Shown here: positions 41,101 to 60,611 of the stretch, one piece after another
Layout of the letters: each line of letters starts with the position of its first letter
How positions within the stretch are numbered: position 1 is the stretch's first letter
Assembly (NCBI GenBank): GCA_963704905.1
Contig: CAVPHZ010000001.1
Coordinates: 643,438 to 707,437, forward strand
Source of the DNA: Candidatus Chisholmbacteria bacterium
GTDB taxonomy: Bacteria > Patescibacteriota > Microgenomatia > UBA1400 > Chisholmbacteraceae
Length of the DNA: 64,000 nucleotides
Direction of reading: 5' to 3'
Notes under the pieces: model-generated
Databases searched by the model: none
Seen by the model: only the letters and a program-made list of their open reading frames with translations
Told to the model about the DNA's origin: nothing
Position numbers and translations under genes: made by a program

Positions 41101-41107
41101 TTTTATT

Positions 41108-42597
<1,490 letters not shown>

Positions 42598-42689
42598 AAG
42601 GAGTTTACATAACTCACGCAAGGTTTGTCGGAGTCCTTGTCCCGCTCGGCGGGAGAAAGAAACCGACCCTATCACATCTAAGACTAACA

Positions 42690-42790
42690 AGAATTGGTTG
42701 GAATCAGATTAAAATCGGTTGAAATTAGTTAGAATTGGTTGGAATTAGTTGCAATTAGTTTAAATCAGTCGAAGTCGGTTGGAATTTGCT
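42690..42790 (+). repeat. Degenerate 10-bp tandem repeat (about 10 units of g/t-aat-y-r-gtt-r) directly after 16S
   Basis: 'gaattggttg gaatcagatt aaaatcggtt gaaattagtt agaattggtt ggaattagtt gcaattagtt taaatcagtc gaagtcggtt ggaatttgct'. Confidence 0.7.
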
Positions 42791-42796
42791 AGAGAA

Positions 42797-42822
42797 GAAC
42801 CGCTCGGGAGAGCGGTTTTTTT
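42797..42822 (+). terminator. Rho-independent terminator after 16S and the spacer repeat
   Basis: 'gaaccgctcgggagagcggtt' perfect hairpin plus 'ttttttt'. Confidence 0.7.
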
Positions 42823-42849
42823 GTGGTGTATGGTAAGATTCGGTGCTTT

Positions 42850-43935
42850 ATGCCAGATGCTGAGAAAAATTTACCATTTAGTGAAGAAGCTCTACCTACT
42901 CTGAGGAGAATGGTTGAGTATGAAGAGGAAATTGGTGTGAGAGATCCTGCAAGTTTAATGCCATTTTCTTTGTATAAGGCTGCTCTTCAAGCAGAGATTC
43001 AGAATGGACTATTTACTTTGGACGCTACCACTGAAGAAGAAAAGTTAGCTCAGGATTTATCAACCGAAGAGTTGACATTGGTTGGACCTTATCTGTCTGT
43101 AATTGCAGAAGCTCGTGTTTTTCGAAGAAAATACTATCCCGAGATTGCACGTTCAGCCGCTATCAGTACTGGATACTTCAGAGAGATTGTCTTTGCTGGA
43201 AGTGAAATTTTTCCTGACGCGTTATTGTATTTGGCAAAAAGTAAGGATGAATCAGTTGAAGAATTAATACTTGTGGAACGGTTGGGGGCATTAGCTGAAG
43301 ACATGCAAGTATATGTGGAAGATGTGATATCAAATATGCTTCTTCAGCAAGGAGCTATTCCTGAAGATCAGAGTGAGAAAGTTTATGATATTTTTGACGA
43401 TCCTCCTGATCATACTTCTGATATCTATACTGAACTTCGGCAATTATTTCTACTTGCATATCAGGTGGTTGATAGGCGAAGACCTGTGGCTATGCAAGAA
43501 AGTGAAAAGAGAACACGAGAGAGTTTTTATTTTGGAGATGAGGAGATTCAGTTAACTGAAGCGCAGAGGATAATTCTTGAACCTTTTGAAGATCTTATTG
43601 CGCAGTCTCTTAAGTTTAGAAGTGTACATAAAATTGTCATTGCTGATGATGTAATGCAGGGACCTTCCGGCTCTCAAAATTTTTATCAAGATATTTCTGA
43701 GCAGATAGCAACAGCATTACCAGATGGTATTCCTTTTTTGGTTGCAAAATATGACATTAGGGAATTTGATTTGGTATTGCCTCATCTTGATAAGATGGTT
43801 GGGCAAATGATAACTGTGGTAAAACCATATATGATTGAGGATGAAAGTAAAGATGAGCTTCGAGAAGATGCACCACCACATATCCAAGATCTCTTTGAAT
43901 TAATGAATTCTTCATTGGATGTGTTTTATTTGTAG
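42850..43935 (+). CDS. Hypothetical acidic protein (ORF extends to a GTG at 42823; ATG 42850 preferred)
   Basis: Long ORF immediately after the terminator; no motif recognised. Confidence 0.4.
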   Translation: MPDAEKNLPFSEEALPTLRRMVEYEEEIGVRDPASLMPFSLYKAALQAEIQNGLFTLDATTEEEKLAQDLSTEELTLVGPYLSVIAEARVFRRKYYPEIARSAAISTGYFREIVFAGSEIFPDALLYLAKSKDESVEELILVERLGALAEDMQVYVEDVISNMLLQQGAIPEDQSEKVYDIFDDPPDHTSDIYTELRQLFLLAYQVVDRRRPVAMQESEKRTRESFYFGDEEIQLTEAQRIILEPFEDLIAQSLKFRSVHKIVIADDVMQGPSGSQNFYQDISEQIATALPDGIPFLVAKYDIREFDLVLPHLDKMVGQMITVVKPYMIEDESKDELREDAPPHIQDLFELMNSSLDVFYL

Positions 43936-44086
43936 GAAAGGATTTGTGTTTTTTTGAACAGCTATAGAGGGCGGTTTTTTGGTGGATTTATTGATGAAGG
44001 AGCCAAGGCTGGAAAGGAATTCTCCAAAAGTTTTTGATATTTCTCGGGAAGCCAAGTATCTGTTATCATACTCATGAAGGATATCT

Positions 44087-44302
44087 ATGAAATTTTTTGG
44101 CGTGCTCTTTGTCATCACTTCGCTGGTTTGTCTGTTTCTGGGATTTATGGGGCTCAAGGGGGATATTGACCATGATTCCTACATTCGGAAGTGGACATTG
44201 TACTGGAAGGCATCGACTCAGTCCGGATATAAAATCATTGGGATTGTGTATTTGTTTCTGGGGGGGCTGCTTTACTTTGTGGCGTTGGCGATGTTGATTT
44301 GA
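44087..44302 (+). CDS. Small 2-TM membrane protein (71 aa)
   Basis: Two hydrophobic helices; precedes obg. Confidence 0.3.
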   Translation: MKFFGVLFVITSLVCLFLGFMGLKGDIDHDSYIRKWTLYWKASTQSGYKIIGIVYLFLGGLLYFVALAMLI

Positions 44303-44411
44303 GGGTTGGGTTGAATTGTCGTTTTGAGTCTCCTAAAAAGTCTGTATGCTTTTCAGGATAAACATGAACAATGATTTTCGGTTGTTATGGCTTCTTTATA
44401 GACTCTTATAG

Positions 44412-45458
<1,047 letters not shown>

Positions 45459-45540
45459 AGTGATTCTTCATTTAATCGGTCACGATACCTCTAAAGGTGA
45501 GACCTGGTAAGGTGCTCTATGGAGGAGGTTTACATTCTTT

Positions 45541-46467
45541 CTAGCTTGATTGTGAAGCGGTAGTTGTGACTAGGCAGCCGTTCCAGCCTCCGGGTCCGGC
45601 GAGGTTGGACCACTGCTGCCAGGTTCCAGACTCATAGAGATGATCCCAGCTAGTAGAGCCGCTGGAGCCGAAGTAACCTACAGGACCATTGCCAGTTTGA
45701 GCTTCGTCTCCCCAATACATGGTATGCCAACCGTTCCAGCCTCCGCTCCAGCTGATGGTGGTGTGATACAGCAGGGGATTACTACCATCTTGGTTGGCGG
45801 TGATGGTGCAGGATGGAGTTCCTTGGGTGGCTTCGACAGTGGTAACGACTTTGCATTGACCAACACCACCTGGACCATGGACATTGGTCCATTGATCCCA
45901 GGTTCCTGGATTGTAAACATGATCCCAGCTGACTGATCCGTATCGGCCATAGAAACCAACTGGACCGTTTCCTGTCTGACTTTCATCTCCCCAGTAAAAT
46001 GCGTGCCAGCCATCATAGGCCCGATCCCAACCAACTGTGGTGTGGAAGAGCTGCGGGTTTGAACCGTCTTTGGTGATGGAAATGCTGCAGGTGGCTGGAT
46101 CGGATTGACCCTCGATGGTTATTTTCAATACGCATTGGGCAGTTCCACCCGGTCCAGACATATGCGTCCATTGATCCCAAGTTCCCTGGTTGTAAAAATG
46201 ATCCCAGTTAGCTGAACCGCTAGAACCGAAATAGCCTATGGGCCCGTTGCCGGTTTGGGCTTCATCGCCCCAATACAACAGGTGCCAGCCATTCCAGCCG
46301 CCACTCCAACTTAAACTGGTGTGGAACACATGACGGTTCCCTGAATCTTGGTTTGAAGAAAGAGTACATTTTGGAGAATCAAGCGCAAACGATTTGGTGA
46401 TGAATCCAGTCGCTACTAGAAGGAGCGAAGTAAGTATTGCTGCTGCGATATTTTTTCTGCTGTTCAT
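45541..46467 (-). CDS. Secreted protein of three PKD-like ~95-aa repeats (start at MNSRKN; ORF extends to 46503)
   Basis: Signal peptide; three repeats of 'C..S.Q.....H.T.SW.GGWNGWH..YWGDE.QTGNGP.G..G..GS..WDH.Y..GTW.QW....GPGG...C'. Confidence 0.55.
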   Translation of the reverse strand: MNSRKNIAAAILTSLLLVATGFITKSFALDSPKCTLSSNQDSGNRHVFHTSLSWSGGWNGWHLLYWGDEAQTGNGPIGYFGSSGSANWDHFYNQGTWDQWTHMSGPGGTAQCVLKITIEGQSDPATCSISITKDGSNPQLFHTTVGWDRAYDGWHAFYWGDESQTGNGPVGFYGRYGSVSWDHVYNPGTWDQWTNVHGPGGVGQCKVVTTVEATQGTPSCTITANQDGSNPLLYHTTISWSGGWNGWHTMYWGDEAQTGNGPVGYFGSSGSTSWDHLYESGTWQQWSNLAGPGGWNGCLVTTTASQSS

Positions 46468-46562
46468 GTCTCGGGCAGCCCGAGTGAATGTAGTGTATTG
46501 CACCTTCAGTATACTGCATTGATCAAGCCCTGTTTTTAAAGGTTCGGAACCTTAGTTTGCCA

Positions 46563-46610
46563 AAAAAAGACAGCTCTGAGAAGTGAATCTCAGCAAGCTG
46601 TCTTTTTTAT
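46563..46610. terminator. Bidirectional rho-independent terminator
   Basis: 'aaaaaaagacagctctgagaagtgaatctcagcaagctgtctttttt': long interrupted hairpin flanked by an A-run and a T-run. Confidence 0.6.
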
Positions 46611-46619
46611 ATGGACAGA

Positions 46620-47567
46620 TTAGTTTTGGGCAGTTATTGTTTCGAGACAACCACCCCAGCCTCCGGGTCCTTCAAGATTTGACCATTGCTGCCAAGTTCC
46701 AGCATTGTAGAGATGGTCCCAGCTGGTTGAGCCGGATTGACCAAAGTAGCCGACTGGATCTGTACCAGTGACCCCTTCGTCACCCCAGTAGAACAGATGC
46801 CAGCCATCCATTGCACCATCCCAAGTAAGCGTAGAGTGGTACAAGAGAGGATTCCCACTATCTGCAGTTGTGGTCACTGAACAGACTGGCGGGTTCGGTT
46901 GTGGGGGAGTTACTACGGTGACTGTTTCAACACAGCCTCCGCCTCCTCCCGGTCCATCAACGTTTGCCCATTGCTGCCAAGTTCCAGGATCATATTCATG
47001 ATCCCAACTTGTCATACCATTTTTGCCAAAAAATCCTGGACCTTCCGCTCCTGTTACAGCTTCATCACCCCAGTGGAAGAGCGACCAATTATCATATGTT
47101 CCACTCCAAGTTACTGTTGAGTGATAGAGGAGTGGGTTGGTAGCATCTTGAGTTGAGGTAATGCTGCAAGTTGCAGGATCGGATGGAGGATATTGGGCGG
47201 TGACTGTTTGAATACAGTTTCCGTTGCCCCCTGGTCCTGAAAGGTTTGACCATTGCTGCCAGGTACCTCCGTTGTAGACGTGATCCCAACTAGACGTGCC
47301 ACTCGAGCCAAAGTAGCCGACCGGTCCGTTGTGTGTTTGAGCCTCGTCTCCCCAATGGAAAAGATGCCAGCTATTATAGGCTCCACTCCAACTTATCGTT
47401 GTGTGGTAGAGGAAAGGATCATTGGTGTCTTGGGTTGCAGTGATACTGCAGGTTGCCGGGTCGATAGCCTGAACTGTTTGTGCGAGTCCGGTGCTGCCGA
47501 TAAGAAGCAAGGTTGTTGTTCCAAGAATAACCGCTAATTTTGTTAACGATTTCATTATTCTTCTCAC
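46620..47567 (-). CDS. Secreted protein of three PKD-like repeats, paralog of 45541..46467
   Basis: Signal peptide 'MKSLTKLAVILGTTTLLLIGSTGLAQTVQA'; same repeat consensus ('WGDEA.T...GP.G.FG..G..SWDH.Y..GTWQQW....GPGG..C'). Confidence 0.55.
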   Translation of the reverse strand: MRRIMKSLTKLAVILGTTTLLLIGSTGLAQTVQAIDPATCSITATQDTNDPFLYHTTISWSGAYNSWHLFHWGDEAQTHNGPVGYFGSSGTSSWDHVYNGGTWQQWSNLSGPGGNGNCIQTVTAQYPPSDPATCSITSTQDATNPLLYHSTVTWSGTYDNWSLFHWGDEAVTGAEGPGFFGKNGMTSWDHEYDPGTWQQWANVDGPGGGGGCVETVTVVTPPQPNPPVCSVTTTADSGNPLLYHSTLTWDGAMDGWHLFYWGDEGVTGTDPVGYFGQSGSTSWDHLYNAGTWQQWSNLEGPGGWGGCLETITAQN

Positions 47568-49321
47568 CTCCTTTCTTTTGTAGAGGTGAAAAATAGCTTT
47601 GCCAAGCTATTTTGAACGTACTCGAGTGGGATGATAGCAGAAAAAAAGACTGGTGTCAAAATGTTATGGGGTTGAATGATATGCCTTTAAGGGTTCAACC
47701 TTTTAAGGTCGTAAAAAAACGGTAGACATGTGAAGTGAGAGGGGGAGAGCGATGAGTGCGGTGAAGGGGTTAACCTTCAAAGACTGGGTGCTCTGCCCGA
47801 CTTTTATTCAATGCTACCGTTTTTGTTTTGACCGAGGTTTCGGCCAGCGCAATGGTTTCGACAACGTGCGTCGAAGCTGCGCTGGCGAGAAATGATCTCG
47901 ATCAAGTTCCCCAGTTCCGGAGTAGTTTTGTTCCAATCCGGAACTGGGGGAATAACGGGTTATCCCTGCTTACCAGGGGGTACGATTGGGAATTCTCGGG
48001 TGGAGTTCAGGTCCTACCCAAAGTGACCCGGAACAGTCCAGGTAATATCTTTCAACGAGACCCCAATCAACTGTGAATTCTTCTCCTGGACTGTAGTAGT
48101 GGTTTTGCTCTTGGAGTGGTTCATGCACGAGTGCTCGACCATCGTCGAGTACAATGACAACGCCGATAAGGCGGCTGTCCACTGCGAAGGAACTATACCC
48201 TCCGACATCTACCCACTGACCATTGCTGGTCGGAGGGCACGGAGTGGATGTTACCTGTGCAGGAGCAGAACTGTTACCACCAACAGGCGTCTTACCATAT
48301 AACCCTTGTCATTATGAAGAATCTCTTCATCTGTTACTTCCTTCTCACTTTGCCTATGCTCTCACTGAGCACTTTTGTTACTTGCCCAGACAGTAATCGT
48401 CAGGGTTTTGGCAAAAGCAATCTGCGTTTCGCAGATTTTTGGTGCCTTCTCCAGTATCTTAGGAGCTTCACCTTCTCCCTTCCTCAGGGGGAGTAGGTGA
48501 TTTTTGGACGTTGTCCAAAAAAGACTGTAAGTGAGCAGAGGAGAAGAGACAACTTTATCTGATACTGTTGCTTCCTCTGTTCCGCTCACTTTCTGTGAGA
48601 AGCGAAAACAAGGGTATAACCCGCTACTTTTTTATTAAAGTGCGAACCTTTCAGCAATAGGTTTTTTCTTCCGCAGATGTGGAAGAAAAACGAGTACTGA
48701 GAAAGGAATGTACGATTAGTTTGTAAGATAAATATTCAGTTTAATTGTGTTCCACTTTCGTCCTTTTGGACTCTTCAGCTCCGATACACATCGGAGGAGT
48801 GGAACGGGTAGTCTAGATTGCTTGTTGGTAAAAATGTTGGGGTGTGAGTGAGACGATAAGTGTCTCAATCAACGATTGCATGTAATATGCCCAACAGATC
48901 TACGTTCAAGCAGTCTATATGTGACTACCCAGTTCCGACTTGACAGGGAATTCCCTTGCCGTTCCAGTCAAGCTTGTGCTTGATAGTTTTAACTAAGCGC
49001 GAGAGCGCGAAGTGAACGACTAATGGGAGTGTTTCCCATTCAAGTTTCCCAGTCCCGGGTGAGGGGTCCCACACCGGGACTGGGAGAACTGATGACAAGA
49101 TAAGTGCTGGGGAGATTGAACTCCAATCCAATAGCCTCTCGATACGCTGCTATTGATTTTCGTTCATTTTTTCCTGCTTGTAGAGGTAAAACGCTGCGAT
49201 CTCATGGCTCTCAAAACGCTCCATGGATCACGTATCTACAAGTGGATCTCCGGTTGGGGTGATTTCTAGCCTGTCAGGTTTTTTAGGCCTGATTTTTTCT
49301 AGAGGCTAGGGTTGATGCTTG

Positions 49322-52300
49322 TTACTGCGAAGCACCTCCTTGGAGTGCGGTTAACAGCGCGATGTTCTGCGCCATTGAGCCGATGTAGTCAGCAGCGCTG
49401 GCTACGATTCCAAGGTTGACTGCGAGGTCTGCGCGGGCGCTGAACGAAGCGTCCATGTCCGCTTGGACCAAACAGTCGACAACGGATACTCCCGAATAAT
49501 CTGCGCAGGCGGCTGCCTGTGCATCCGAGAGTGTTGAACTGTTCGAGCTTGCATCGATCGGTTGTCCCGTCAATGGGGCAGCCAACTCTTGCGAAGTAGG
49601 GGTAAGGCGGTCTGGAGACCACCAGCCGGGTTTGACACCGACCAGCGAATCCTGATTCAGACCTTCGAGTACTCGCAGCTCGGTGGGCAGACCTTCGTTG
49701 TCAAGCTCAGCAACATTGAGGTTGCCTTCGATGAGCATTACAACGTATCCACCACCGGGGCGAAACGCCAGTGATTCGGCGTCTGTGCTGAAGATTTTGT
49801 CATCGCCACTCTGCAAGTAGGGCTTTGAAACGAACTGCCCTGCCTGTTGCATCACCCAAGCTTCCTGGTCGGGATACCAGGTGATGCTGGTGGTTGCGCC
49901 TTCGACACCGAGGGCATCGGCTTCGAGAGCTGTCGCTCCGACCTCCGCTTTCTGAATAGAGGCGGTGTTCACGATGGTTTCGCAAACCATAACCAATCCG
50001 TCTGGGCTGACGACTGGTTTCTGGCAGTCCGAAGCCATGAGCTCCCGCTCTGACCCGTCGAGCTTGATGCGTTCGACTGTGTACTTTCCATCCCTCTCAG
50101 CAGTGAAGTAGACATGATTGTCGGTGCTAGTGAAGGGATGCAGTTCATTGACATCAGCGGTGTCGGTCAGCTGGTGAGGAGTTCCGCCGAACACGGGCAT
50201 AGAGTAGAGGTCACTTTGATCCTCTGTTTCGACAGAGAAGTCCCACTGGCAACCGTCCTTGGTGATCGAAATCACCGGGTCGGTGCTTTTACCATCCAAA
50301 TCGATTTTCACATCGACCTGGGGTTCGTGGGTGAACGTTCCGTCGGCAATCTCGTCCAGGATGTACGAGATCGTCATGCCCTGCTTCCAAAAGATGTGCT
50401 CTTCAGGAAGACACTGAGCTACCTGCGCGATGACTTCGGGCGGAGCTTGCGTTGTCGTCGGCGGTTCCTCAAAGGTGACGCTGTCGTTACAGGTAACTGA
50501 GCCACCTGGGCCGGTGACCGTAAAGGTCAGGTCGTAGGTTCCAGCGGAGGTGTACTGATGCTCGCGCATCTCCGTACCGCTCATACCCTCGAAACCAACC
50601 TCGGTTTCATCGCCCCATTCGAGGATTTGCCATCCCTCGCCATTTTCCCAGCTTGCGTTAGCGTTGATGCGCCGTTCCTCTTGCGAGGTGATTTCGGTGC
50701 TCAGACTGCAGGTGGGTGCCGGCGGAGGTGGCGGAGGCTCAAAGGTGACGCTGTCGTTACAGGTAACTGAGCCACCTGGGCCGGTGACCGTAAAGGTCAG
50801 GTCGTAGGTTCCAGCGGAGGTGTACTGATGCTCGCGCATCTCCGTACCGCTCATACCCTCGAAACCAACCTCGGTTTCATCGCCCCATTCGAGGATTTGC
50901 CATCCCTCGCCATTTTCCCAGCTTGCGTTAGCGTTGATGCGCCGTTCCTCTTGCGAGGTGATTTCGGTGCTCAGACTGCAGGTGGGTGCCGGTGGAGGTG
51001 GCGGAGGCTCAAAGGTGACCTTAGCCTTGCATGTTACCTTTCCACCAGGGCCATGAACAACCAAGCGCAGACGGTAGGTTCCAGCCTCTGGATACACATG
51101 GGTTTCCTCAAAGGTCCCATCAGTACCAGCGAAAGAAACTTGTTCGCCATTGTGGCCCCAGTACAGGGTGGTTCCATCCTCATAAGCGTTGCCATAGCTG
51201 CCACTGGCTACTGCCTCGTACAGGTTGTCAGTAGTGCTGACTTCCAAACTGCAGGTGGGTGCCGGCGGAGGTGGCGGAGGCTCAAAGGTGACCTTAGCCT
51301 TGCATGTTACCTTTCCACCAGGGCCATGAACAACCAAGCGCAGACGGTAGGTTCCAGCCTCTGGATACACATGGGTTTCCTCAAAGGTCCCATCAGTACC
51401 AGCGAAAGAAACTTGTTCGCCATTGTGGCCCCAGTACAGGGTGGTTCCATCCTCATAAGCGTTGCCATAGCTGCCACTGGCTACTGCCTCGTACAGGTTG
51501 TCAGTAGTGCTGACTTCCAAACTGCAGGTGGGTGCCGGCGGAGGTGGCGGAGGCTCAAAGGTAACTTCATCCGAGCAGCTTGTGGTGCCACCGGGTCCGG
51601 TAACCGTGAACTCTTGGACATACGTTCCGTAGTCCGAGAACTGATGCTCACGGGTCTCGTTGCCGGAAGCTCCTTGAAAGCCAACATCGGTTCCATCACC
51701 CCAGGTGAGGATGTGCCAGTCTTCATTACCGCCGTCCCAGCTCACGTTGGTGCTGATCTGCTTCTCGTCTTCGTTGACGACGGTGGTGTTCACCGAGCAG
51801 GTGGGTGCCGGCGGAGGTGGCGGGGGTTCCTCAAAGGTAACTTCATCCGAGCAGCTTGTGGTGCCACCGGGTCCGGTAACCGTGAACTCTTGGACATACG
51901 TTCCGTAGTCCGAGAACTGATGCTCACGGGTCTCGTTGCCGGAAGCTCCTTGAAAGCCAACATCGGTTCCATCACCCCAGGTGAGGATGTGCCAGTCTTC
52001 ATTACCGCCGTCCCAGCTCACGTTGGTGCTGATCTGCTTCTCGTCTTCGTTGACGACGGTGGTGTTCACCGAGCAGGTGGGTGCCGGCGGAGGTGGCGGG
52101 GGGCAATCCGGTTTGTAGATCGTTCCGGATGCGCTCCATGTATCGATCACGTTACCTTCACCATCATACCAGGTGACAGTTACGGACCAGTCCGCCGACT
52201 GTTGTCCATCAGCCCAGGTTCCGACGAGGTTCGAGCTTTCCGTTATTACACCTTCTTGGCCATTCCAGACGGTATTCACCTTGACTTCCCAGCCTTCGCA

Positions 52301-53041
52301 GGTGGGACATTCGGTGACGTCGCCGTGCCAGTCAGGAGTAACTGGAACGCAGCTTCTATTGTCCACCGTTGCGGTGGGGTTAAAGTTCACTGCGGTCTCG
52401 TCCATGCAGCCGGGGATTTCCACAGGCTCTACGGGCGGATACTCACAGCTCCCATTGTCCACCGTTGCGGTGGGGTTAAAGTTCACTGCGGTCTCGTCCA
52501 TGCAGCCGGGGATTTCCACAGGCTCTACGGGCGGATACTCACAGCTCCCATTGTCCACCGTTGCGGTGGGGTTAAAGTTCACTGCGGTCTCGTCCATGCA
52601 GCCGGGGATTTCCACAGGCTCTACGGGCGGATACTCACAGCTCCCATTGTCCACCGTTGCGGTGGGGTTAAAGTTCACTGCGGTCTCGTCCATGCAGCCG
52701 GGGATTTCCTTCGGAGGTTCCGGTGTTGGATCCTCTTTTGGGGGTTCCACAATCTCAGTGACTACTGGACCAACCTCTTCAGTAACAACAGGATCTCCAC
52801 TCCCATCATTAACTGGAGGCATTTCTGATGGATTGATAGGATCGGGCTCGCTGCCGCGATCCTTGTCCTCTGTGAGGACGGGCTGATCTACAACCACTCC
52901 CTCCGCGGGTGCGGGGGGATTGTTGTCCTGGGCAAAAGCCATGGGCACGAACGCGAAGTTCGATGCGATCATAGCAATCGCCAGGATTAACCCGATTATA
53001 TTCGGGGTTTTGCGGGATAACCGCAAGAGCTTGCTTTTCAT
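49322..53041 (-). CDS. Giant secreted surface protein (1239 aa). Signal peptide; Pro-rich region; 4x Cys-bracketed 32-aa repeat; 6 PKD-like domains as three exact duplicate pairs joined by 'EPPPPPPAPT' linkers; TolB-like beta-propeller region; C-terminal unknown domain.
   Basis: RBS 'aaggaga' 8 nt upstream of ATG 53041; 'MKSKLL...FVPMAFAQD' signal; PKD signature 'WHILTWGDGTDV...HQFSDYGTYVQEFTVTGPGG'; 'YFTAERDGKYTV...VVSPDG' propeller blades. Confidence 0.65.
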   Translation of the reverse strand: MKSKLLRLSRKTPNIIGLILAIAMIASNFAFVPMAFAQDNNPPAPAEGVVVDQPVLTEDKDRGSEPDPINPSEMPPVNDGSGDPVVTEEVGPVVTEIVEPPKEDPTPEPPKEIPGCMDETAVNFNPTATVDNGSCEYPPVEPVEIPGCMDETAVNFNPTATVDNGSCEYPPVEPVEIPGCMDETAVNFNPTATVDNGSCEYPPVEPVEIPGCMDETAVNFNPTATVDNRSCVPVTPDWHGDVTECPTCEGWEVKVNTVWNGQEGVITESSNLVGTWADGQQSADWSVTVTWYDGEGNVIDTWSASGTIYKPDCPPPPPPAPTCSVNTTVVNEDEKQISTNVSWDGGNEDWHILTWGDGTDVGFQGASGNETREHQFSDYGTYVQEFTVTGPGGTTSCSDEVTFEEPPPPPPAPTCSVNTTVVNEDEKQISTNVSWDGGNEDWHILTWGDGTDVGFQGASGNETREHQFSDYGTYVQEFTVTGPGGTTSCSDEVTFEPPPPPPAPTCSLEVSTTDNLYEAVASGSYGNAYEDGTTLYWGHNGEQVSFAGTDGTFEETHVYPEAGTYRLRLVVHGPGGKVTCKAKVTFEPPPPPPAPTCSLEVSTTDNLYEAVASGSYGNAYEDGTTLYWGHNGEQVSFAGTDGTFEETHVYPEAGTYRLRLVVHGPGGKVTCKAKVTFEPPPPPPAPTCSLSTEITSQEERRINANASWENGEGWQILEWGDETEVGFEGMSGTEMREHQYTSAGTYDLTFTVTGPGGSVTCNDSVTFEPPPPPPAPTCSLSTEITSQEERRINANASWENGEGWQILEWGDETEVGFEGMSGTEMREHQYTSAGTYDLTFTVTGPGGSVTCNDSVTFEEPPTTTQAPPEVIAQVAQCLPEEHIFWKQGMTISYILDEIADGTFTHEPQVDVKIDLDGKSTDPVISITKDGCQWDFSVETEDQSDLYSMPVFGGTPHQLTDTADVNELHPFTSTDNHVYFTAERDGKYTVERIKLDGSERELMASDCQKPVVSPDGLVMVCETIVNTASIQKAEVGATALEADALGVEGATTSITWYPDQEAWVMQQAGQFVSKPYLQSGDDKIFSTDAESLAFRPGGGYVVMLIEGNLNVAELDNEGLPTELRVLEGLNQDSLVGVKPGWWSPDRLTPTSQELAAPLTGQPIDASSNSSTLSDAQAAACADYSGVSVVDCLVQADMDASFSARADLAVNLGIVASAADYIGSMAQNIALLTALQGGASQ
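50472..52091 (-). repeat. Three consecutive pairs of perfectly identical ~270-276-bp coding units (PKD-domain duplications) inside the giant gene
   Basis: 50472-50741 equals 50742-51011; 51012-51281 equals 51282-51551; 51552-51821 equals 51822-52091 apart from one 6-nt difference. Read directly from the sequence. Confidence 0.8.
52345..52728 (-). repeat. Four tandem 96-bp units encoding 'EIPGCMDETAVNFNPTATVDNGSCEYPPVEPV'
   Basis: Unit 'actcacagctcccattgtccaccgttgcggtggggttaaagttcactgcggtctcgtccatgcagccggggatttccacaggctctacgggcggat' repeated head-to-tail; first and last copies slightly variant. Confidence 0.8.
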
Positions 53042-55162
53042 CGAAAATTCTCCTTAAAGTGAGTTACGAAGTGAGCTTCCATATCCATTGGGGAGAGCAA
53101 CCATACGAGGGTTGGATCTCCAGGATACTTCTGCTCCTTCTGAGGTTTTACCTGACTGTGCAGGGATAGAGATTTAACACCCTCTATCAGGGTAAAATTT
53201 TTGTTAATTCCCAAAGCAGTGATGTTGGTGTGATGAAGGGGAGCGTGGAGGCAAGGAACTACCCGCCACGTCTCCGCGCAGGTGCTTTAGAGGTTTTTTA
53301 GTCCTTTACCTCCACAATCCCCCTCACCAGCTGTTTCACTGATCGGGATTTCACTTTGGAGAAATCGATGAATCCACCATTTTTTCAGATGTTTTTCATC
53401 TTGTCATTCAGTTGTTAATGAGCAATCATCTCGGTCTCTAGACGTAATCTAGAGGAGATGACTTTGTCCCCATATCTTTCGGGACGGTTCTCCCGGCAAA
53501 TGTCGGGGGGTGTCCCAGATTGACCTAGGGAGGATTACCCACCTTGCGATGTCCAACTCTCCATAGGCCAAAAAAAGAGAAAACCACCCAGGGAGTCTAG
53601 TCTGACAAAAAAATACGAACACCGATGTATTAACATCATTTGGTATTGTATTGATTGTCAGGGACTTACCCTGGGTGGTGGATGGCGGTTTACTCTTCTC
53701 AAGCGGCATGAATGAAAAAAATTAAATAATTGCTTATTTGGTTTTTTTGCTTGAGATTTGTTTTTGCGTTGATCTGGTATTGAGTACGTTCCATGTAATA
53801 ATGGATACACAGATCGGGCGCAAAGATTGCGCTGATGCCAATGGGACTTTGAAAAAGTACCGTGCACCAGGGGGAGTTACCCCAACCGAGTCAGTTTTCC
53901 GAAGAAAATTGATTTGGGTCCGCTTGGGTTTCACATTGGCTCTCTACCTGTTTTTTTGGACAGTGTCCCAGATAAATTTGTGATTCCCATGACGTGGCGG
54001 TGTGGTACTTGATGAAAGTTGCCCGAAGGCAGATCTTTTTTCAATACCGAGGCCAACTATAGCCATCCTTTTTTAAAGAGCGACACACGCCTTCTGCAGG
54101 GGAGATGTTGCACCGAAGTGCGAGTCTCGAGCAGGTCCTGCAAATAGCAGGGGCGCGGTCTCTGTTCTCTGGACTGGTCCAGAGAGAACTGGAGAGAAAT
54201 AGGGATTCTCATCAGATCTCTTTGGAACAAAAGATTGCCTTGGAGGGTTTGGTTGTACCTGCTGGTTTTTCTTCGTTTGTCTTGAAAAATCAGGGTCAAA
54301 CCATAAAAAAGCCGTGAACCAAGGTCACGGCATAGTACACCAGATACAGTACTCTGGTAGGTACGTTTTTTGCCAGGATGAACCTGGCGTGATTCCTCGA
54401 GATAATTTGTTGCATTATCCCAGGATGTGACCTCTAAAGCATTTACCTCTAAAGCTTTTTAAAGAGCAGATGTGTCTTCTAGACTTTACCCTGGTAAGAC
54501 GCCGGAAAGGACTACCCTATGTATATTTTCACATAAGATATTTCACAGCCTCCCACCAGAGTGAAATCCAGAAGTGAGCGGCGAAAATCTGACGATTTTC
54601 ACAACCTATAATGATGTCAATGTGTCTCCTCGAGATTACTCGAGGGGAATACTGTCATTGCCTGGAATCCAGCTTATGAGTTACTTCTTTACTCACATAA
54701 AGAAGTAACCAAGAAAGTGTGCCCCAAGCTGTGTCGATGTCTTCACCTACGATTTTCGCTCGGGAAGTCCTTCCGAAATTCCCTTTGGTCAGTTTCGGTT
54801 TTCCTTTAGCGAACATCGGGTTCAGTAGAATCGACTCCGCTAAGGGTTTCTGCTCAGATTTTTTTATGTCAATTTGGCCAACCAAAAGCCACGATGTACG
54901 TGGCAGTTGGGAGTAAAAAAAATTAGCTTATTGGGCTAATTTTCTCTGTCCGAATTCTTGGGGCGCAGTATACTATAGTATTAGCAATTTGTCAAGGTAA
55001 CTGCTAGTAGCATAAACATACCGATATACTAGGCTAAGAGATACATATGTTTCAATTGGTATCTACACCTTTACGGTGTAGTCAGTTTGGGAAATATTAG
55101 TGCCGATGAGAATATTGATTGGCTATGGTAGGATAAGGAGAAATTAATAGAAATAAGGAATT

Positions 55163-55432
55163 ATGACTGAAGCTGAGGGAAGCGAGAGCAATCTATCCGC
55201 CGAAGGAAGACGAGAACTAGAAGGACAGATCGGAGATCTGGTCACTGGTCCGATGACAAGCGGGACAGAAGCCGAGCAACAAGAAGCACGGGGCTTAGCT
55301 GCTAGTATGAGTCGCCTTCTTGGAAGAGAGCCAGTGTTTAAGAGTGTACGAAGAGATGAGAAGACTGGCAGATTAATTGAGGAGAGCGGTACGATTACGA
55401 ATGAAGGAGAACGTAAGAAAAAGAAGAAATAA
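55163..55432 (+). CDS. Hypothetical small acidic protein (89 aa) immediately upstream of tRNA-Ile
   Basis: Good SD ('aagga' 6 nt upstream of ATG); ends in poly-Lys; no motif. Confidence 0.4.
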   Translation: MTEAEGSESNLSAEGRRELEGQIGDLVTGPMTSGTEAEQQEARGLAASMSRLLGREPVFKSVRRDEKTGRLIEESGTITNEGERKKKKK

Positions 55433-55439
55433 GATTTTA

Positions 55440-55515
55440 GGGCGAATAGCTCAGTTGGTTAGAGCGCAGTCCTGATAAGACTGAGGTCCATGGTTCGAAT
55501 CCATGTTCGCCCACC
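55440..55515 (+). tRNA. tRNA-Ile (anticodon GAU)
   Basis: 'gggcgaatagctcagttggttagagcgcagtcctgataagactgaggtccatggttcgaatccatgttcgccca': cloverleaf, anticodon loop 'cctgataag'; CCA not fully encoded. Confidence 0.9.
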
Positions 55516-55662
55516 TCGCTGCACTCAGTGCAGGCACTTCTTATTGCGTTCAGTAGAAGTACCTCTTGTATACCTTCTCAACTGTCCCGTTTTTGTGAAT
55601 GTTGTTTGATCTCAGCTTGACATGATTGTGAGACAATCGTACGCTATTGATAGAGGGTTTTT

Positions 55663-56076
55663 ATGTCCAATGGTGAGACTTCCAAAGATGAGTATATGCA
55701 GCTGTTCAATGAAATTATTCAGCAGCAATGCATTATTCTCGGTCCGGATATCTCAATCATTATCGCAAAGAAGGTCGACGGGCTGATTTTTTCTGAAGAT
55801 GGAAAAGTAACTGATTTTCAAGGAGATGGTCAGCCATTGTTGCAAAAACTTATCAATGGATTCGTAAATCTCTCTGGAATGATTGTGAGGAAAACTATCG
55901 AGCCGCTACTGGCTAAACATCCTGCTGCAGCTGCAAAAGTGACCGGGCAACCTGCTGGAAGCATACAGACTCCACAGACTCCGTTACCAAACCCACTGCC
56001 AGTTTCAGTTCAACCTCAACCTCAGCCTCAGCAACCTCTACCAAATGAACAGTCAGTCCCGAAGGAGGGATCATGA
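55663..56076 (+). CDS. Hypothetical protein with Pro/Gln-rich C-terminus (137 aa)
   Basis: ORF between tRNA-Ile and tRNA-Ala; 'QPQPQPQQPLP' tail; 4-nt overlap with the next ORF. Confidence 0.4.
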   Translation: MSNGETSKDEYMQLFNEIIQQQCIILGPDISIIIAKKVDGLIFSEDGKVTDFQGDGQPLLQKLINGFVNLSGMIVRKTIEPLLAKHPAAAAKVTGQPAGSIQTPQTPLPNPLPVSVQPQPQPQQPLPNEQSVPKEGS

Positions 56077-56645
56077 GAAGTGTAAAAGGATTTACACTTG
56101 CCGGTCTTCTAGTTTTGGTTTTTCCAGCATCGGTATTTGCGGTGGGGTTGGATTCGTCATCATTTCTTTATAGCTCAGATATTCTTGCTCCGCTTGACAT
56201 TAATATAGTCCAGGACATTGGATTAATTCTGCCCGTTGTTGTTGCTTGGTTTGCCATCCGTGTGGCTCGGCTCATGCAGGGTGGGAAGTTTGAGCGTATT
56301 TGGAAGCTGATTGCAGCAGGGATGGGTGTCCTGGCCATCATTAAAGTCGTTGATGGTTTGGAAAATTTGGGAGTACTGTATGTTGTGGGATTGCGGAATC
56401 TCTTGGAATTTGTGATGATCGTTGTCTTTTTTACGGCATTTTTGTACGGATACCGTTCGCTCATGCTGGCCATTCGGGGTCCAAGTATAGAAAAACCTGT
56501 CATTACCGTGCCCAAAGAGGAATTGGGACAAAGTGGTGCTGAGGAGAAACCAGCTAAGGAGGGTGAACCACAGGAGACTCTGCCTGCAGAATCCGAGAAG
56601 AAGACTCCGACAAAAGATCAGAAGAATAAAGATAAAACGAAATAA
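56073..56645 (+). CDS. Secreted/membrane protein (signal peptide plus ~4 TM) with Lys-rich C-terminus (190 aa)
   Basis: 'MRSVKGFTLAGLLVLVFPASVFA' signal peptide; hydrophobic helices; translationally coupled to the upstream ORF. Confidence 0.45.
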   Translation: MRSVKGFTLAGLLVLVFPASVFAVGLDSSSFLYSSDILAPLDINIVQDIGLILPVVVAWFAIRVARLMQGGKFERIWKLIAAGMGVLAIIKVVDGLENLGVLYVVGLRNLLEFVMIVVFFTAFLYGYRSLMLAIRGPSIEKPVITVPKEELGQSGAEEKPAKEGEPQETLPAESEKKTPTKDQKNKDKTK

Positions 56646-56742
56646 ACCTCTTATTTAAAGACTCCTCTTTGCGCGTTTGTATGCGCTGACACCTTTATTG
56701 CTGTAATCCGTTTGATTTTTGAATGTGATCGGATTGATATTG

Positions 56743-56771
56743 TTGACTTCTTTAGGGGTGTCTGTTAGGAT
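56743..56771 (+). promoter_or_regulatory. Candidate promoter for tRNA-Ala-23S-5S
   Basis: 'ttgact'-17 nt-'taggat' about 275 nt upstream of tRNA-Ala. Confidence 0.3.
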
Positions 56772-57046
56772 ACAGATTGCCAATTTTTTAGGCGAACTTT
56801 AGGAGGCTTTTTCTACAACTCATGAGAATATTTGGTTTACATCGATTGCTTCAGTGCCGTCTTCGAAGGTGGCAAACGTAGTCGCGACTCCTGATCCTCA
56901 TGTGTTGAGAAGAATCTCCGTAAGCGGAGATTTTTTATTGACATACCCGTCGGGTTGGACAGGGGCCTGTAGCTCCCTGTAAAAATTTATACGTTTCCAA
57001 ATTTTTACAGGGCGAGACGCTATCAGAAATTGCTGGCCTTTAAAAA

Positions 57047-57122
57047 GGGCCTGTAGCTCAGTTGGCTAGAGCGCTACATTTGCAATGTAGAGGTCACCGG
57101 TTCGAGTCCGGTCAGGTCCACC
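57047..57122 (+). tRNA. tRNA-Ala (anticodon UGC) with the G3-U70 identity pair
   Basis: 'gggcctgtagctcagttggctagagcgctacatttgcaatgtagaggtcaccggttcgagtccggtcaggtccacc'; acceptor gggcctg/caggtcc gives G3-U70. Confidence 0.9.
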
Positions 57123-57371
57123 TCGATTTGCTAAGCAAATCTCGGTGCGGGCACCTAAAAATAAGAAGCGTGTAAAGCATTTTTCGATGCGGGCACCTTT
57201 TAAAATAAGAACGAATCAAAGGTTGATGAGAGTTTATCTTTCATAAATATAAACTTTCGTGAGTCTTTGATCAGAGATGATCATATGAGCTCAGGCTAGC
57301 TCTTTGACAAGTGAATAGAATGTTTTGTCAAGTCATATTCCCATATGACTTGGTAGGACCGATCTTTGTAG

Positions 57372-60370
<2,999 letters not shown>

Positions 60371-60493
60371 TTACATTGATCGGTGCATTCTATTCATTTT
60401 TCAGAGAGCAAGCGAAAGCCACGCCACTATATTTGATGTGGTGAGGTAAACTTGGACAATTTACTCAAGTTTTAGAATCATATATAATACTAT

Positions 60494-60611
60494 TGCTGGT
60501 CTTTTGAGCGGGGTGGCCCTACCTCTTCCCATACCGAACAGAGTCGTCAAACACCCCAGCGCTGACGATAGTGCTACCGCAAGGTTGCGCGAAAATAGGT
60601 CAAGGCCAGCA
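60494..60611 (+). rRNA. rrf: 5S ribosomal RNA
   Basis: 5' 'ttgctggtc' pairs with 3' 'ggccagca'; internal 'cccataccgaacagag' loop C block; followed by 'tttttgtgg'. Confidence 0.8.

What the first reader, a model, noticed from the sequence alone, without database searches (positions are those of the whole stretch)
50472..52091. Perfectly identical 270-bp tandem duplicates inside the giant surface-protein gene
Three different PKD-domain units are each present as two head-to-tail copies. They are identical at the nucleotide level: 50472-50741 equals 50742-51011, 51012-51281 equals 51282-51551, and 51552-51821 equals 51822-52091. Zero divergence implies very recent duplication or ongoing gene conversion. 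It predicts copy-number (phase-like) variation of the surface protein. It is also a classic site for assembly collapse or expansion.
Basis: seen in the sequence. Interest (0 to 1): 0.6.

Follow-up and report, generated by a model that had tools for sequence, protein, structure and literature searches.

The report
Doubled PKD domains in surface protein
A secreted bacterial protein gene carries three different PKD-type domains, each recently doubled into two essentially identical neighbouring copies, plus a fourth perfect repeat array; this is the familiar raw material for length-variable cell-surface stalks rather than a new kind of system.

Summary
The core observation holds, but the coordinates and details are partly wrong. 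The gene (49322-53041, minus strand, 1239 aa, not giant) has six PKD units in the order A A B B C C. Their periods are 276, 273 and 270 bp, not 3 x 270. A1/A2 match at 273/273 nt, with an extra Glu codon at their junction. B1/B2 match at 273/273. C1/C2 match at 269/270, the one difference being synonymous.

The unit types are old: 32-55% aa identity between types. The three closest relatives found carry such units only as single, diverged copies, so the doublings are recent and specific to this gene. Each unit is flanked by a conserved Pro-rich linker (12-42 nt direct repeats), which fits slippage or unequal recombination. All periods are multiples of 3, so any change alters protein length and does not switch the gene on or off.

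The closest known kind is the "Periscope" variable-length surface proteins. No second strain or reads could be found, so copy-number variation and the exact copy numbers remain untested. The gene sits in a GC-rich, skew-free island inside a split rRNA operon. A hammerhead ribozyme-like element lies about 520 nt downstream.

The parts
49322..53041 (-). Complete gene, 1239 aa. Order of modules: signal peptide, acidic/Pro-rich spacer, 4 Cys-motif repeats, small beta domain, 6 PKD units (AABBCC), beta-propeller, small helical C-terminal domain.
   Evidence: ORF list; translation; Pfam. The exact protein is P0001, a singleton cluster on one 772,908-bp contig.
53050..53055 (-). Shine-Dalgarno-like AAGGAG, 8 nt upstream of the ATG at 53041.
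   Evidence: Read from the sequence.
52931..53041 (-). Probable signal peptide (aa 1-37: basic n-region, hydrophobic core, AFA|QD). This is an inference from the sequence; no predictor was run.
   Evidence: Translation.
52325..52708 (-). Copies 1-3 are 100% identical; copy 4 differs at 23 nt at its 3' end.
   Evidence: TRF. The motif accounts for the hundreds of hits covering about 10% of the query, many of them carrying the PF18962 domain (one named by NCBI as a T9SS sorting-domain protein of Bacteroidota).
52103..52324 (-). Pre-PKD region (aa 240-313). It matches the N-terminal region of P0122 only at borderline level (E 0.053).
51827..52102 (-). PKD unit A1 (92 aa, 276 bp). The last codon, GAA at 51827-51829, is absent from A2.
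51554..51826 (-). PKD unit A2 (91 aa, 273 bp), 273/273 identical to A1.
51281..51553 (-). PKD unit B1 (91 aa, 273 bp).
51008..51280 (-). PKD unit B2, 273/273 identical to B1. The pair is flanked by a 42-nt direct repeat (ACCTTTGAG plus the 33-nt linker).
50738..51007 (-). PKD unit C1 (90 aa, 270 bp). Its linker carries the only within-pair difference (CCA at 50993).
50468..50737 (-). PKD unit C2, 269/270 identical to C1. The pair is flanked by the 12-nt direct repeat GTCACCTTTGAG.
49613..50410 (-). Six-bladed beta-propeller of the TolB/YWTD fold type. It is the module shared with relatives P0121, P0122, P0124, P0126, P0127, P0130 and P0271.
   Evidence: phmmer; AF2 model (pLDDT 74); Foldseek PDB; weak TolB hits.
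49343..49483 (-). Small C-terminal helical domain (weak DUF3597 match). It is shared with P0122, P0155 and P0197. A role as a possible wall/surface anchor is an inference only.
46620..47567 (-). Context: neighbouring paralogous gene with a signal peptide and 3 diverged PKD-like units, in the same GC-rich, skew-free island.
45541..46503 (-). Context: second paralogous gene with 3 diverged PKD-like units (55% aa identity to orf46620, about 30% to the target's units).

Best explanation
The gene encodes a secreted, probably surface-exposed, modular protein. A spacer of PKD (Ig-like) domains separates an N-terminal Cys-motif repeat region from a C-terminal beta-propeller. An ancestral spacer with single, mutually diverged units (A-B-C) has very recently undergone three separate single-unit, in-frame tandem duplications, giving A-A-B-B-C-C. 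The 96-bp Cys-motif array expanded separately. The duplications were seeded by replication slippage or unequal recombination between the short direct repeats that flank every unit: the conserved '...VTFE-PPPPPPAPTCS' linker, 12-42 nt identical at DNA level. Each doubling has now created 270-276 bp of perfect homology. That is an efficient substrate for further gain or loss of units, so the protein's length (stalk reach) is expected to vary between cells or strains without disrupting the reading frame. This would be a Periscope-protein-like length variator at an early stage. Shown here: the repeat anatomy, the domain identities, the divergence between types, the single-copy state in the three closest relatives found, and the linker homologies. 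Inferred: the slippage/recombination mechanism, surface location, stalk function and future copy-number instability.
For: Within-pair identity is 273/273, 273/273 and 269/270 nt. Between-type identity is 45-61% nt and 32-55% aa. P0270 has three single units that are 28-31% identical to each other, P0271 has two units 52% identical followed by the same propeller (colinear, E 6e-37), and P0272 has one unit. The two adjacent paralogous genes have three units each at only 63-71% nt identity. The identity run for pair B is 273 + 42 nt and for pair C 270 + 12 nt, meaning each duplicated segment is bounded by direct repeats. Linkers are 85-97% nt identical between types, with synonymous codons shared in 8-10 of 11 codons against about 40-55% in the unit bodies. 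All periods are multiples of 3, the ORF is intact and a good SD is present. Family members vary in precisely this spacer: a PT-rich linker in P0121, P0122, P0126, P0127 and P0130, 2 PKD units in P0271, and 6 PKD units here. The copy-specific junctions of pairs A and C each occur once. Published precedent holds that high DNA identity between tandem folded domains drives repeat-number variation in surface proteins (PMC8201768).
Against: No second strain, assembly or read set contains the gene, so not one length variant has been observed. Once a 273-bp perfect pair exists it should change copy number much faster than new pairs arise from 12-42 nt homologies. 'Exactly two of each' is therefore not the neutral expectation, and it is also what a minimal loop traversal by an assembler would give. 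The A1>A2 junction carries 3 extra nt (GAA) and no flanking homology, so that event was not a clean linker crossover. No cell-wall anchor motif (such as LPXTG) or TM anchor was identified, so surface attachment and stalk orientation are inferred. Identical adjacent Ig-like domains are generally disfavoured because of misfolding (stated in PMC8201768).
Confidence: 0.6

Rival explanations
1. Assembly artefact or wrong copy number. The tandem loops were resolved arbitrarily, for example by one traversal each, so the true genome has one copy, or more than two copies, of some units. The neat AABBCC pattern would then reflect the assembler and not biology.
For: Exactly two copies for all three unit types is the minimal loop-traversal outcome. 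Pair B, including its 42-nt flanks, has no copy-specific marker: the shared 42-mer occurs 3 times. A Logan contig from run ERR12037370 carrying the identical Obg and the two small PKD genes ends about 1.6 kb short of this gene, though the reason for that break was not determined. No reads are available to check.
Against: A-end is followed once by GAA+CCCCCG and once by CCT. C-start is preceded once by the CCG-linker and once by the CCA-linker. Such junctions cannot be invented by a graph mis-walk and require two distinct copies, or a strain polymorphism, in the reads. Assemblers usually collapse tandem repeats rather than expand them. The contig is 772,908 bp and runs through four perfect arrays and an rRNA operon, which suggests long reads or careful curation (inference).
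Confidence: 0.2
2. Old paired architecture kept homogeneous by concerted evolution. AABBCC is ancient, and frequent gene conversion or unequal exchange between the two members of each pair keeps them identical. Divergence between types blocks exchange across pairs.
For: The linkers of different unit types are far more alike at synonymous sites than the unit bodies, showing that some sequence exchange or homogenisation operates in this array. Zero divergence in three pairs at once is easier to explain by a continuing process than by three coincidentally recent events.
Against: None of the three relatives found has paired units (P0270: 3 singles; P0271: 2 diverged; P0272: 1). The neighbouring paralogues have diverged triplets. 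The extra GAA codon and the CCA/CCG difference sit at junctions and have not been homogenised.
Confidence: 0.12
3. A directed, unit-by-unit doubling process. The GC-rich, polypyrimidine Pro-codon linker would act as a hotspot (fork stalling and template switching, or a site-specific activity), so that each unit is duplicated in place as a regular feature of this gene family.
For: Every duplicated segment is exactly one unit bounded by the linker. Four independent arrays lie in one gene and no other exact repeats occur in 64 kb. The linker is conserved at DNA level.
Against: No recombinase, retroelement or other dedicated machinery was seen next to the gene. The three relatives and the paralogues with comparable Pro-rich linkers show no doubling. 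Ordinary slippage, which falls off with distance, already favours single-unit events.
Confidence: 0.04

Closest known systems
Periscope proteins (Whelan et al. 2021, PMC8201768: SasG/Aap, Rib/alpha C, Sgo_0707 SHIRT, Esp, CdrA)
   Same: Bacterial secreted or surface proteins in which tandem folded domains, mostly Ig-like, are near-identical at DNA level. This breaks the usual 'adjacent domains diverge' rule. The high DNA identity is proposed to allow intragenic recombination that changes repeat number, and hence stalk length, in frame.
   Different: Here the array is heterogeneous: three unrelated-looking unit types, each present only twice, plus a separate 96-bp array. Periscope proteins have one unit type repeated 3 to more than 40 times. 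No strain-to-strain length variation has been observed here. No LPXTG or other recognised anchor is present. The probable functional head (a beta-propeller) is C-terminal. The organism is an uncultured lineage with no close genome in the GTDB representatives searched.
Fibrillar adhesins with PKD/Ig-like stalk domains (Monzon et al. 2021, PMC8286594; PMC9210967)
   Same: Signal peptide, a run of PKD-type stalk domains and a globular non-stalk domain at one end.
   Different: No known adhesive domain was detected. The propeller matches TolB/YWTD only at fold level. At six domains the stalk is short.
Unnamed family of the relatives P0271, P0122 and P0121 (metagenomic proteins sharing the propeller)
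   Same: The same about 300-aa propeller (31-49% identity). P0122 also has the same C-terminal helical domain. P0271 also has the same Cys-bracketed PKD units directly upstream of the propeller.
   Different: The relatives have either a PT-rich disordered spacer or two diverged PKD units. None has duplicated identical units or the 4 x Cys-motif array.
Phase-variable contingency loci (simple-sequence-repeat ON/OFF switches)
   Same: Repeat-mediated, RecA-independent slippage as a source of heritable, reversible surface variation.
   Different: Units here are 96-276 bp and all multiples of 3. Copy changes keep the frame and change size, not expression state.

Membership tests
PKD domain (Pfam PF18911 PKD_4 / PF00801 PKD) | Profile-HMM score above the curated gathering threshold | tested here: met
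   PKD_4 scores 74.1 bits against a cut-off of 27, with 6 matched stretches. PKD scores 45.5 bits against 23.5.
Periscope proteins | Tandem array of folded domains with very high DNA-level identity between adjacent repeats | tested here: met
   Adjacent pairs match at 273/273, 273/273 and 269/270 nt. Identity holds only within pairs; between pairs it is 45-61%.
Periscope proteins | Observed variation in repeat number between strains or homologues of the same protein | not testable with these tools
   No near-identical homologue was found in 5.8e9 proteins, the GTDB representatives, JGI metagenomes or viral contigs. More distant relatives do differ in the spacer, with 0, 2 or 6 PKD units.
Periscope proteins | Cell-surface location: secretion signal plus a cell-wall or membrane anchor, with the functional domain at the distal end | tested here: inconclusive
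   An N-terminal signal-like sequence can be read, but no predictor was run. No LPXTG or C-terminal TM is visible. The C-terminal helical domain matches DUF3597 only weakly (20.4 bits against a cut-off of 29.8).
Periscope proteins | The repeat region forms an elongated rod | not tested
   No structure of the tandem units was predicted. The Pro6 linkers are compatible with an extended spacer, but that is inference.
Fibrillar adhesins | Stalk domains plus a recognised adhesive domain | tested here: inconclusive
   Stalk (PKD) domains are present. No known adhesive domain was found in Pfam or NCBIfam. The propeller matches only at fold level.
Phase-variable (ON/OFF) repeat switch | Repeat unit not a multiple of 3 within the ORF, or repeats in the promoter, so that copy change shifts frame or expression | tested here: not met
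   The periods are 96, 270, 273 and 276, all divisible by 3 and all inside the ORF.
TolB (Tol-Pal system) | Equivalog-level match to TIGR02800 and a Tol-Pal context | tested here: not met
   25.3 bits against a cut-off of 343. Only the propeller fold is shared (Foldseek E about 5e-9, 13-16% identity).

The most novel reading that the evidence does not exclude
The in-place doubling of every unit (A-A-B-B-C-C) is not three coincidental accidents. It would be the signature of a linker-directed, unit-by-unit amplification process, with the conserved GC-rich Pro-codon linker acting as a replication-stall or template-switch hotspot. Such a process would let a recently acquired surface-protein gene in a small genome tune its stalk length module by module.
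Probability: 0.05. Interest if true: 0.55.

Novelty: new member of a known kind. Interest (0 to 1): 0.3.

Why it matters
If the duplications are real, this gene is a snapshot of how a variable-length surface stalk begins. Diverged Ig-like spacer domains are doubled one by one at conserved linkers, creating the long perfect repeats on which recombination can then act. It would extend the Periscope-protein idea from cultured pathogens to an uncultured, poorly represented bacterial lineage. It would also provide a natural case of 100% identical adjacent PKD domains, which bears on the 'adjacent domains must diverge to avoid misfolding' rule. Practically, it flags 50.4-52.8 kb as a place where copy number in this assembly should not be trusted without long reads. 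Otherwise it is an ordinary phenomenon.

Tried and rejected
1. I looked for population or strain variants of the gene. I tried an exact-product lookup, a 5.8e9-protein search with the full protein and with the PKD part, GTDB genomes, JGI metagenome contigs and viral contigs. Nothing closer than 42-53% local identity turned up, so copy-number variation could not be tested.

2. I tried to name the organism. Obg used as a bait in GTDB gave at best 49% full-length identity across scattered phyla. The cluster lookup gave no names. Literature searches for ERR12037370 and GCA_015665585 found nothing. The lineage stays unidentified.

3. I considered whether the ORF-poor flanks hide extensions of a 'giant' gene or PKD pseudogenes. 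tblastn with all island proteins and relatives found nothing there, so I rejected this.

4. I considered a phage origin for the island. There were no viral-contig matches, so this is not supported.

5. I looked for the hammerhead next to relatives of the gene or elsewhere. It is absent from L081 and L082, from JGI metagenomes by exact 29-mer and from viral contigs.

6. I rejected the antisense ORF 50828-52828 (+, 666 aa) as a by-product of the GC-rich repeats. The Pfam and homology evidence lies on the minus strand.

7. I rejected a single event producing AABBCC. A duplication of ABC would give ABCABC, whereas each pair here has its own junction anatomy.

Full report
OBSERVATION. 50472-50741 vs 50742-51011 differ at 1 of 270 positions. 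The second and third stated pairs differ at 197 and 189 of 270. Tandem Repeats Finder shows why: the three arrays have periods of 270, 273 and 276 bp, confirmed by period-specific identity runs and by the repeat finder. In register with the encoded protein the units are as follows:
- C2 50468-50737 / C1 50738-51007: 269/270 identical. The difference is a synonymous CCA/CCG in the linker.
- B2 51008-51280 / B1 51281-51553: 273/273 identical.
- A2 51554-51826 / A1 51830-52102: 273/273 identical, with one extra Glu codon (GAA; TTC on the + strand) at 51827-51829.
It is 4 x 96 bp, with the first three copies identical and the fourth differing at 23 nt. These are the only exact repeats of 30 nt or more in the 64-kb window, so chance is not an issue.

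THE GENE. The repeats lie in one intact minus-strand ORF, 49322-53041, of 1239 aa. It is large but not giant. AAGGAG sits 8 nt before the ATG. From N to C the protein contains:
- a signal-peptide-like N-terminus (read from the sequence; inference);
- an acidic/Pro-rich stretch;
- four 32-aa 'GCMDETAVNFNPTATVDNGSC' repeats;
- a region of about 75 aa;
- six PKD units (Pfam PKD_4, 74 bits, six stretches) in the order A A B B C C, each starting with the linker PPPPPPAPTCS;
- a C-terminal 381 aa.
An AlphaFold model of the C-terminal part (8-sequence alignment, pLDDT 74) shows a six-bladed beta-propeller followed by a small helical domain. The propeller matches TolB- and YWTD-type propellers at fold level (weak sequence hits). 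It is not a TolB orthologue: 25 bits against a cut-off of 343.

HOW OLD ARE THE UNITS, AND HOW YOUNG ARE THE PAIRS? Types A, B and C share only 32-55% aa and 45-61% nt identity in their bodies, so the types are ancient. The best relatives of the PKD part carry such units only as single or mutually diverged copies:
- P0270 has three units that are 28-31% identical to each other.
- P0271 has two units 52% identical, followed by the same propeller. It is colinear with the window protein at 31% over 492 aa, E 6e-37.
- P0272 has one unit.
The two adjacent genes (45541-46503 and 46620-47567) are paralogues, each with a signal peptide and three such units, at only 63-71% nt identity. Other relatives of the propeller (P0121, P0122, P0126, P0127, P0130) have a PT-rich linker where this protein has PKD units. 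The segment between the N-terminal module and the propeller is therefore a variable spacer across the family. The doubling of each unit is specific to this gene and very recent.

MECHANISM (inferred). Every unit is bounded by '...(V)TFE | PPPPPPAPTCS', which is conserved at DNA level. Linkers are 85-97% nt identical between types. Synonymous codons are shared in 8-10 of 11 linker codons, against about 40-55% of identical-aa codons in the unit bodies. The identity run of pair B is 273 + 42 nt and that of pair C is 270 + 12 nt. The duplicated segments are thus flanked by direct repeats, as expected for replication slippage or unequal recombination between linkers. Pair A is 273 nt plus a 3-nt filler with no flanking homology, so that event was less clean. 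A single event cannot give AABBCC; three single-unit events are needed, plus the expansion of the 96-bp array. Because all periods are multiples of 3, any gain or loss changes protein length without shifting the frame. This would be size variation, not on/off phase variation. The perfect repeats of 270-276 bp now present should be much better recombination substrates than the 12-42 nt linkers that seeded them.

COMPARISON WITH KNOWN SYSTEMS. The closest described kind is the Periscope proteins. These are bacterial surface proteins in which near-identical tandem folded domains, mostly Ig-like, vary in number between strains and set how far a functional domain projects. The authors attribute this to intragenic recombination promoted by high DNA identity. 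They also note that it breaks the rule that adjacent domains diverge to avoid misfolding (PMC8201768). This gene meets the feature 'adjacent folded domains nearly identical at DNA level'. Its array, however, is a mosaic of three types present twice each, not one type repeated many times. No anchor motif was recognised, and inter-strain length variation could not be examined. I therefore say that it probably works like a Periscope protein at an incipient stage, without filing it as a proven member.

ARTEFACT QUESTION. No reads are available. Several points argue against an artefact. The end of unit A has two different continuations (GAA+CCCCCG... and CCT...), each occurring once. The start of unit C has two different upstream linkers (CCG and CCA variants), each occurring once. 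An assembler cannot invent these, so two distinct A and C copies (or a strain polymorphism) must exist in the data. Assemblers also tend to collapse tandem repeats rather than expand them, and the contig is 772,908 bp long.

Other points favour caution. Pair B has no copy-specific marker, since the shared 42-mer occurs three times. 'Exactly two copies of everything' is what a minimal loop traversal yields, and it is not the neutral expectation once perfect pairs exist. A Logan contig of run ERR12037370 with the identical neighbouring genes ends about 1.6 kb short of this gene, for undetermined reasons. My estimates are about 0.8 that tandem duplications of each unit truly exist and about 0.6 that the copy numbers are exactly as assembled.

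CONTEXT. The gene and its two paralogous neighbours form a compositional island. They have GC 0.50-0.57 (GC3 0.62 for the target) and GC skew near 0. The rest of the window has GC about 0.42 (GC3 about 0.40) and a + strand skew of about +0.2 regardless of gene orientation. This suggests recent acquisition. The island lies inside a split rRNA operon: 16S at 41102-42595, then Obg and the island, then tRNA-Ile at 55440, tRNA-Ala at 57047, 23S and 5S. The organism could not be named. Obg used as a bait retrieved nothing above 49% full-length identity among GTDB species representatives, though that bait search only finds genomes sharing exact 8-residue peptide words.

VERDICT. The repeats are real, apart from the coordinate and period errors and one nucleotide. 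They are best explained as recent, linker-mediated, in-frame duplications in the spacer of a secreted modular protein. That is a new member of a known kind of variable-length surface protein. The prediction of copy-number variation remains untested. Interest is modest.

Noticed in passing
window 48750-48804, minus strand: Hammerhead type III ribozyme-like element, about 520 nt downstream of the PKD gene's stop, on the same strand, inside an ORF-free stretch. Rfam RF00008 scores 35.6 bits (below the gathering score of 48.5), with E 5.9e-4 for the whole window. All core nucleotides are present (CUGAAGA ... GAAA, cleavage site UC). The MFE fold is exactly the three-way junction, z = -4.3. No copy was found next to relatives of the gene, in JGI metagenomes or in viral contigs.
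   Followed up: partly
window 41102-60611: Split rRNA operon. The 16S (41102-42595) is separated by about 12.8 kb of protein-coding and non-coding DNA from tRNA-Ile (55440), followed by two small ORFs, tRNA-Ala (57047), 23S (57385-60364) and 5S (60495-60611), all on the + strand. The intervening DNA includes the essential GTPase gene obg and the minus-strand PKD-gene island.
   Followed up: partly
window 45541-53041 (perhaps to about 54 kb): Compositionally foreign island. Three minus-strand genes for secreted proteins built from Cys-bracketed PKD-like units have GC 0.50-0.57 and GC skew about 0.01. The rest of the window has GC about 0.42 and skew about +0.2. This suggests recent horizontal acquisition.
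   Followed up: partly
window 47568-49321 and 53042-55439: Two unusually long stretches (1.75 and 2.4 kb) flank the gene and contain no ORF of 100 aa or more from a start codon. They show no protein similarity to island proteins or relatives. Apart from the hammerhead and the edge of the tRNA-Ile gene, they have no significant Rfam match. Around 47970-48320 (minus strand) a signal-peptide-like start followed by a stop-free 112-aa frame hints at a frameshifted small gene.
   Followed up: partly
window 1-64000: Strong positive GC skew (about +0.2) on the + strand across the whole window, irrespective of gene orientation: blocks of minus-strand genes at 14-30 kb show it too. Most predicted proteins have no Pfam match. 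The recognisable ones are glycosyltransferases, ATP-grasp enzymes, MnmA and Obg.
   Followed up: no
window 52325-52708 (aa 112-239 of the gene): The 32-aa 'GC[MTV]D..A.N[FY]..A..DDGSC' motif accounts for the large set of hits covering about 10% of the query. Many of those hits carry the PF18962 domain, and the one that NCBI names is a T9SS sorting-domain protein of Bacteroidota. The motif appears to have no Pfam model of its own; precomputed and direct hits fall weakly on PsaN PF05479, probably spuriously. P0057 (910 aa, on a 771,708-bp JGI contig) consists largely of this motif plus a PG_binding_1 domain.
   Followed up: partly
window 42690-42786: A 10/20-nt tandem repeat (GAATTAGTTG x about 7, 72-80% matches) begins about 95 nt downstream of the 16S rRNA gene.
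   Followed up: no
window 50828-52828, plus strand: A 666-aa antisense ORF runs through the repeat region. It is almost certainly a by-product of the GC-rich, repetitive coding sequence on the other strand and could mislead gene callers.
   Followed up: partly
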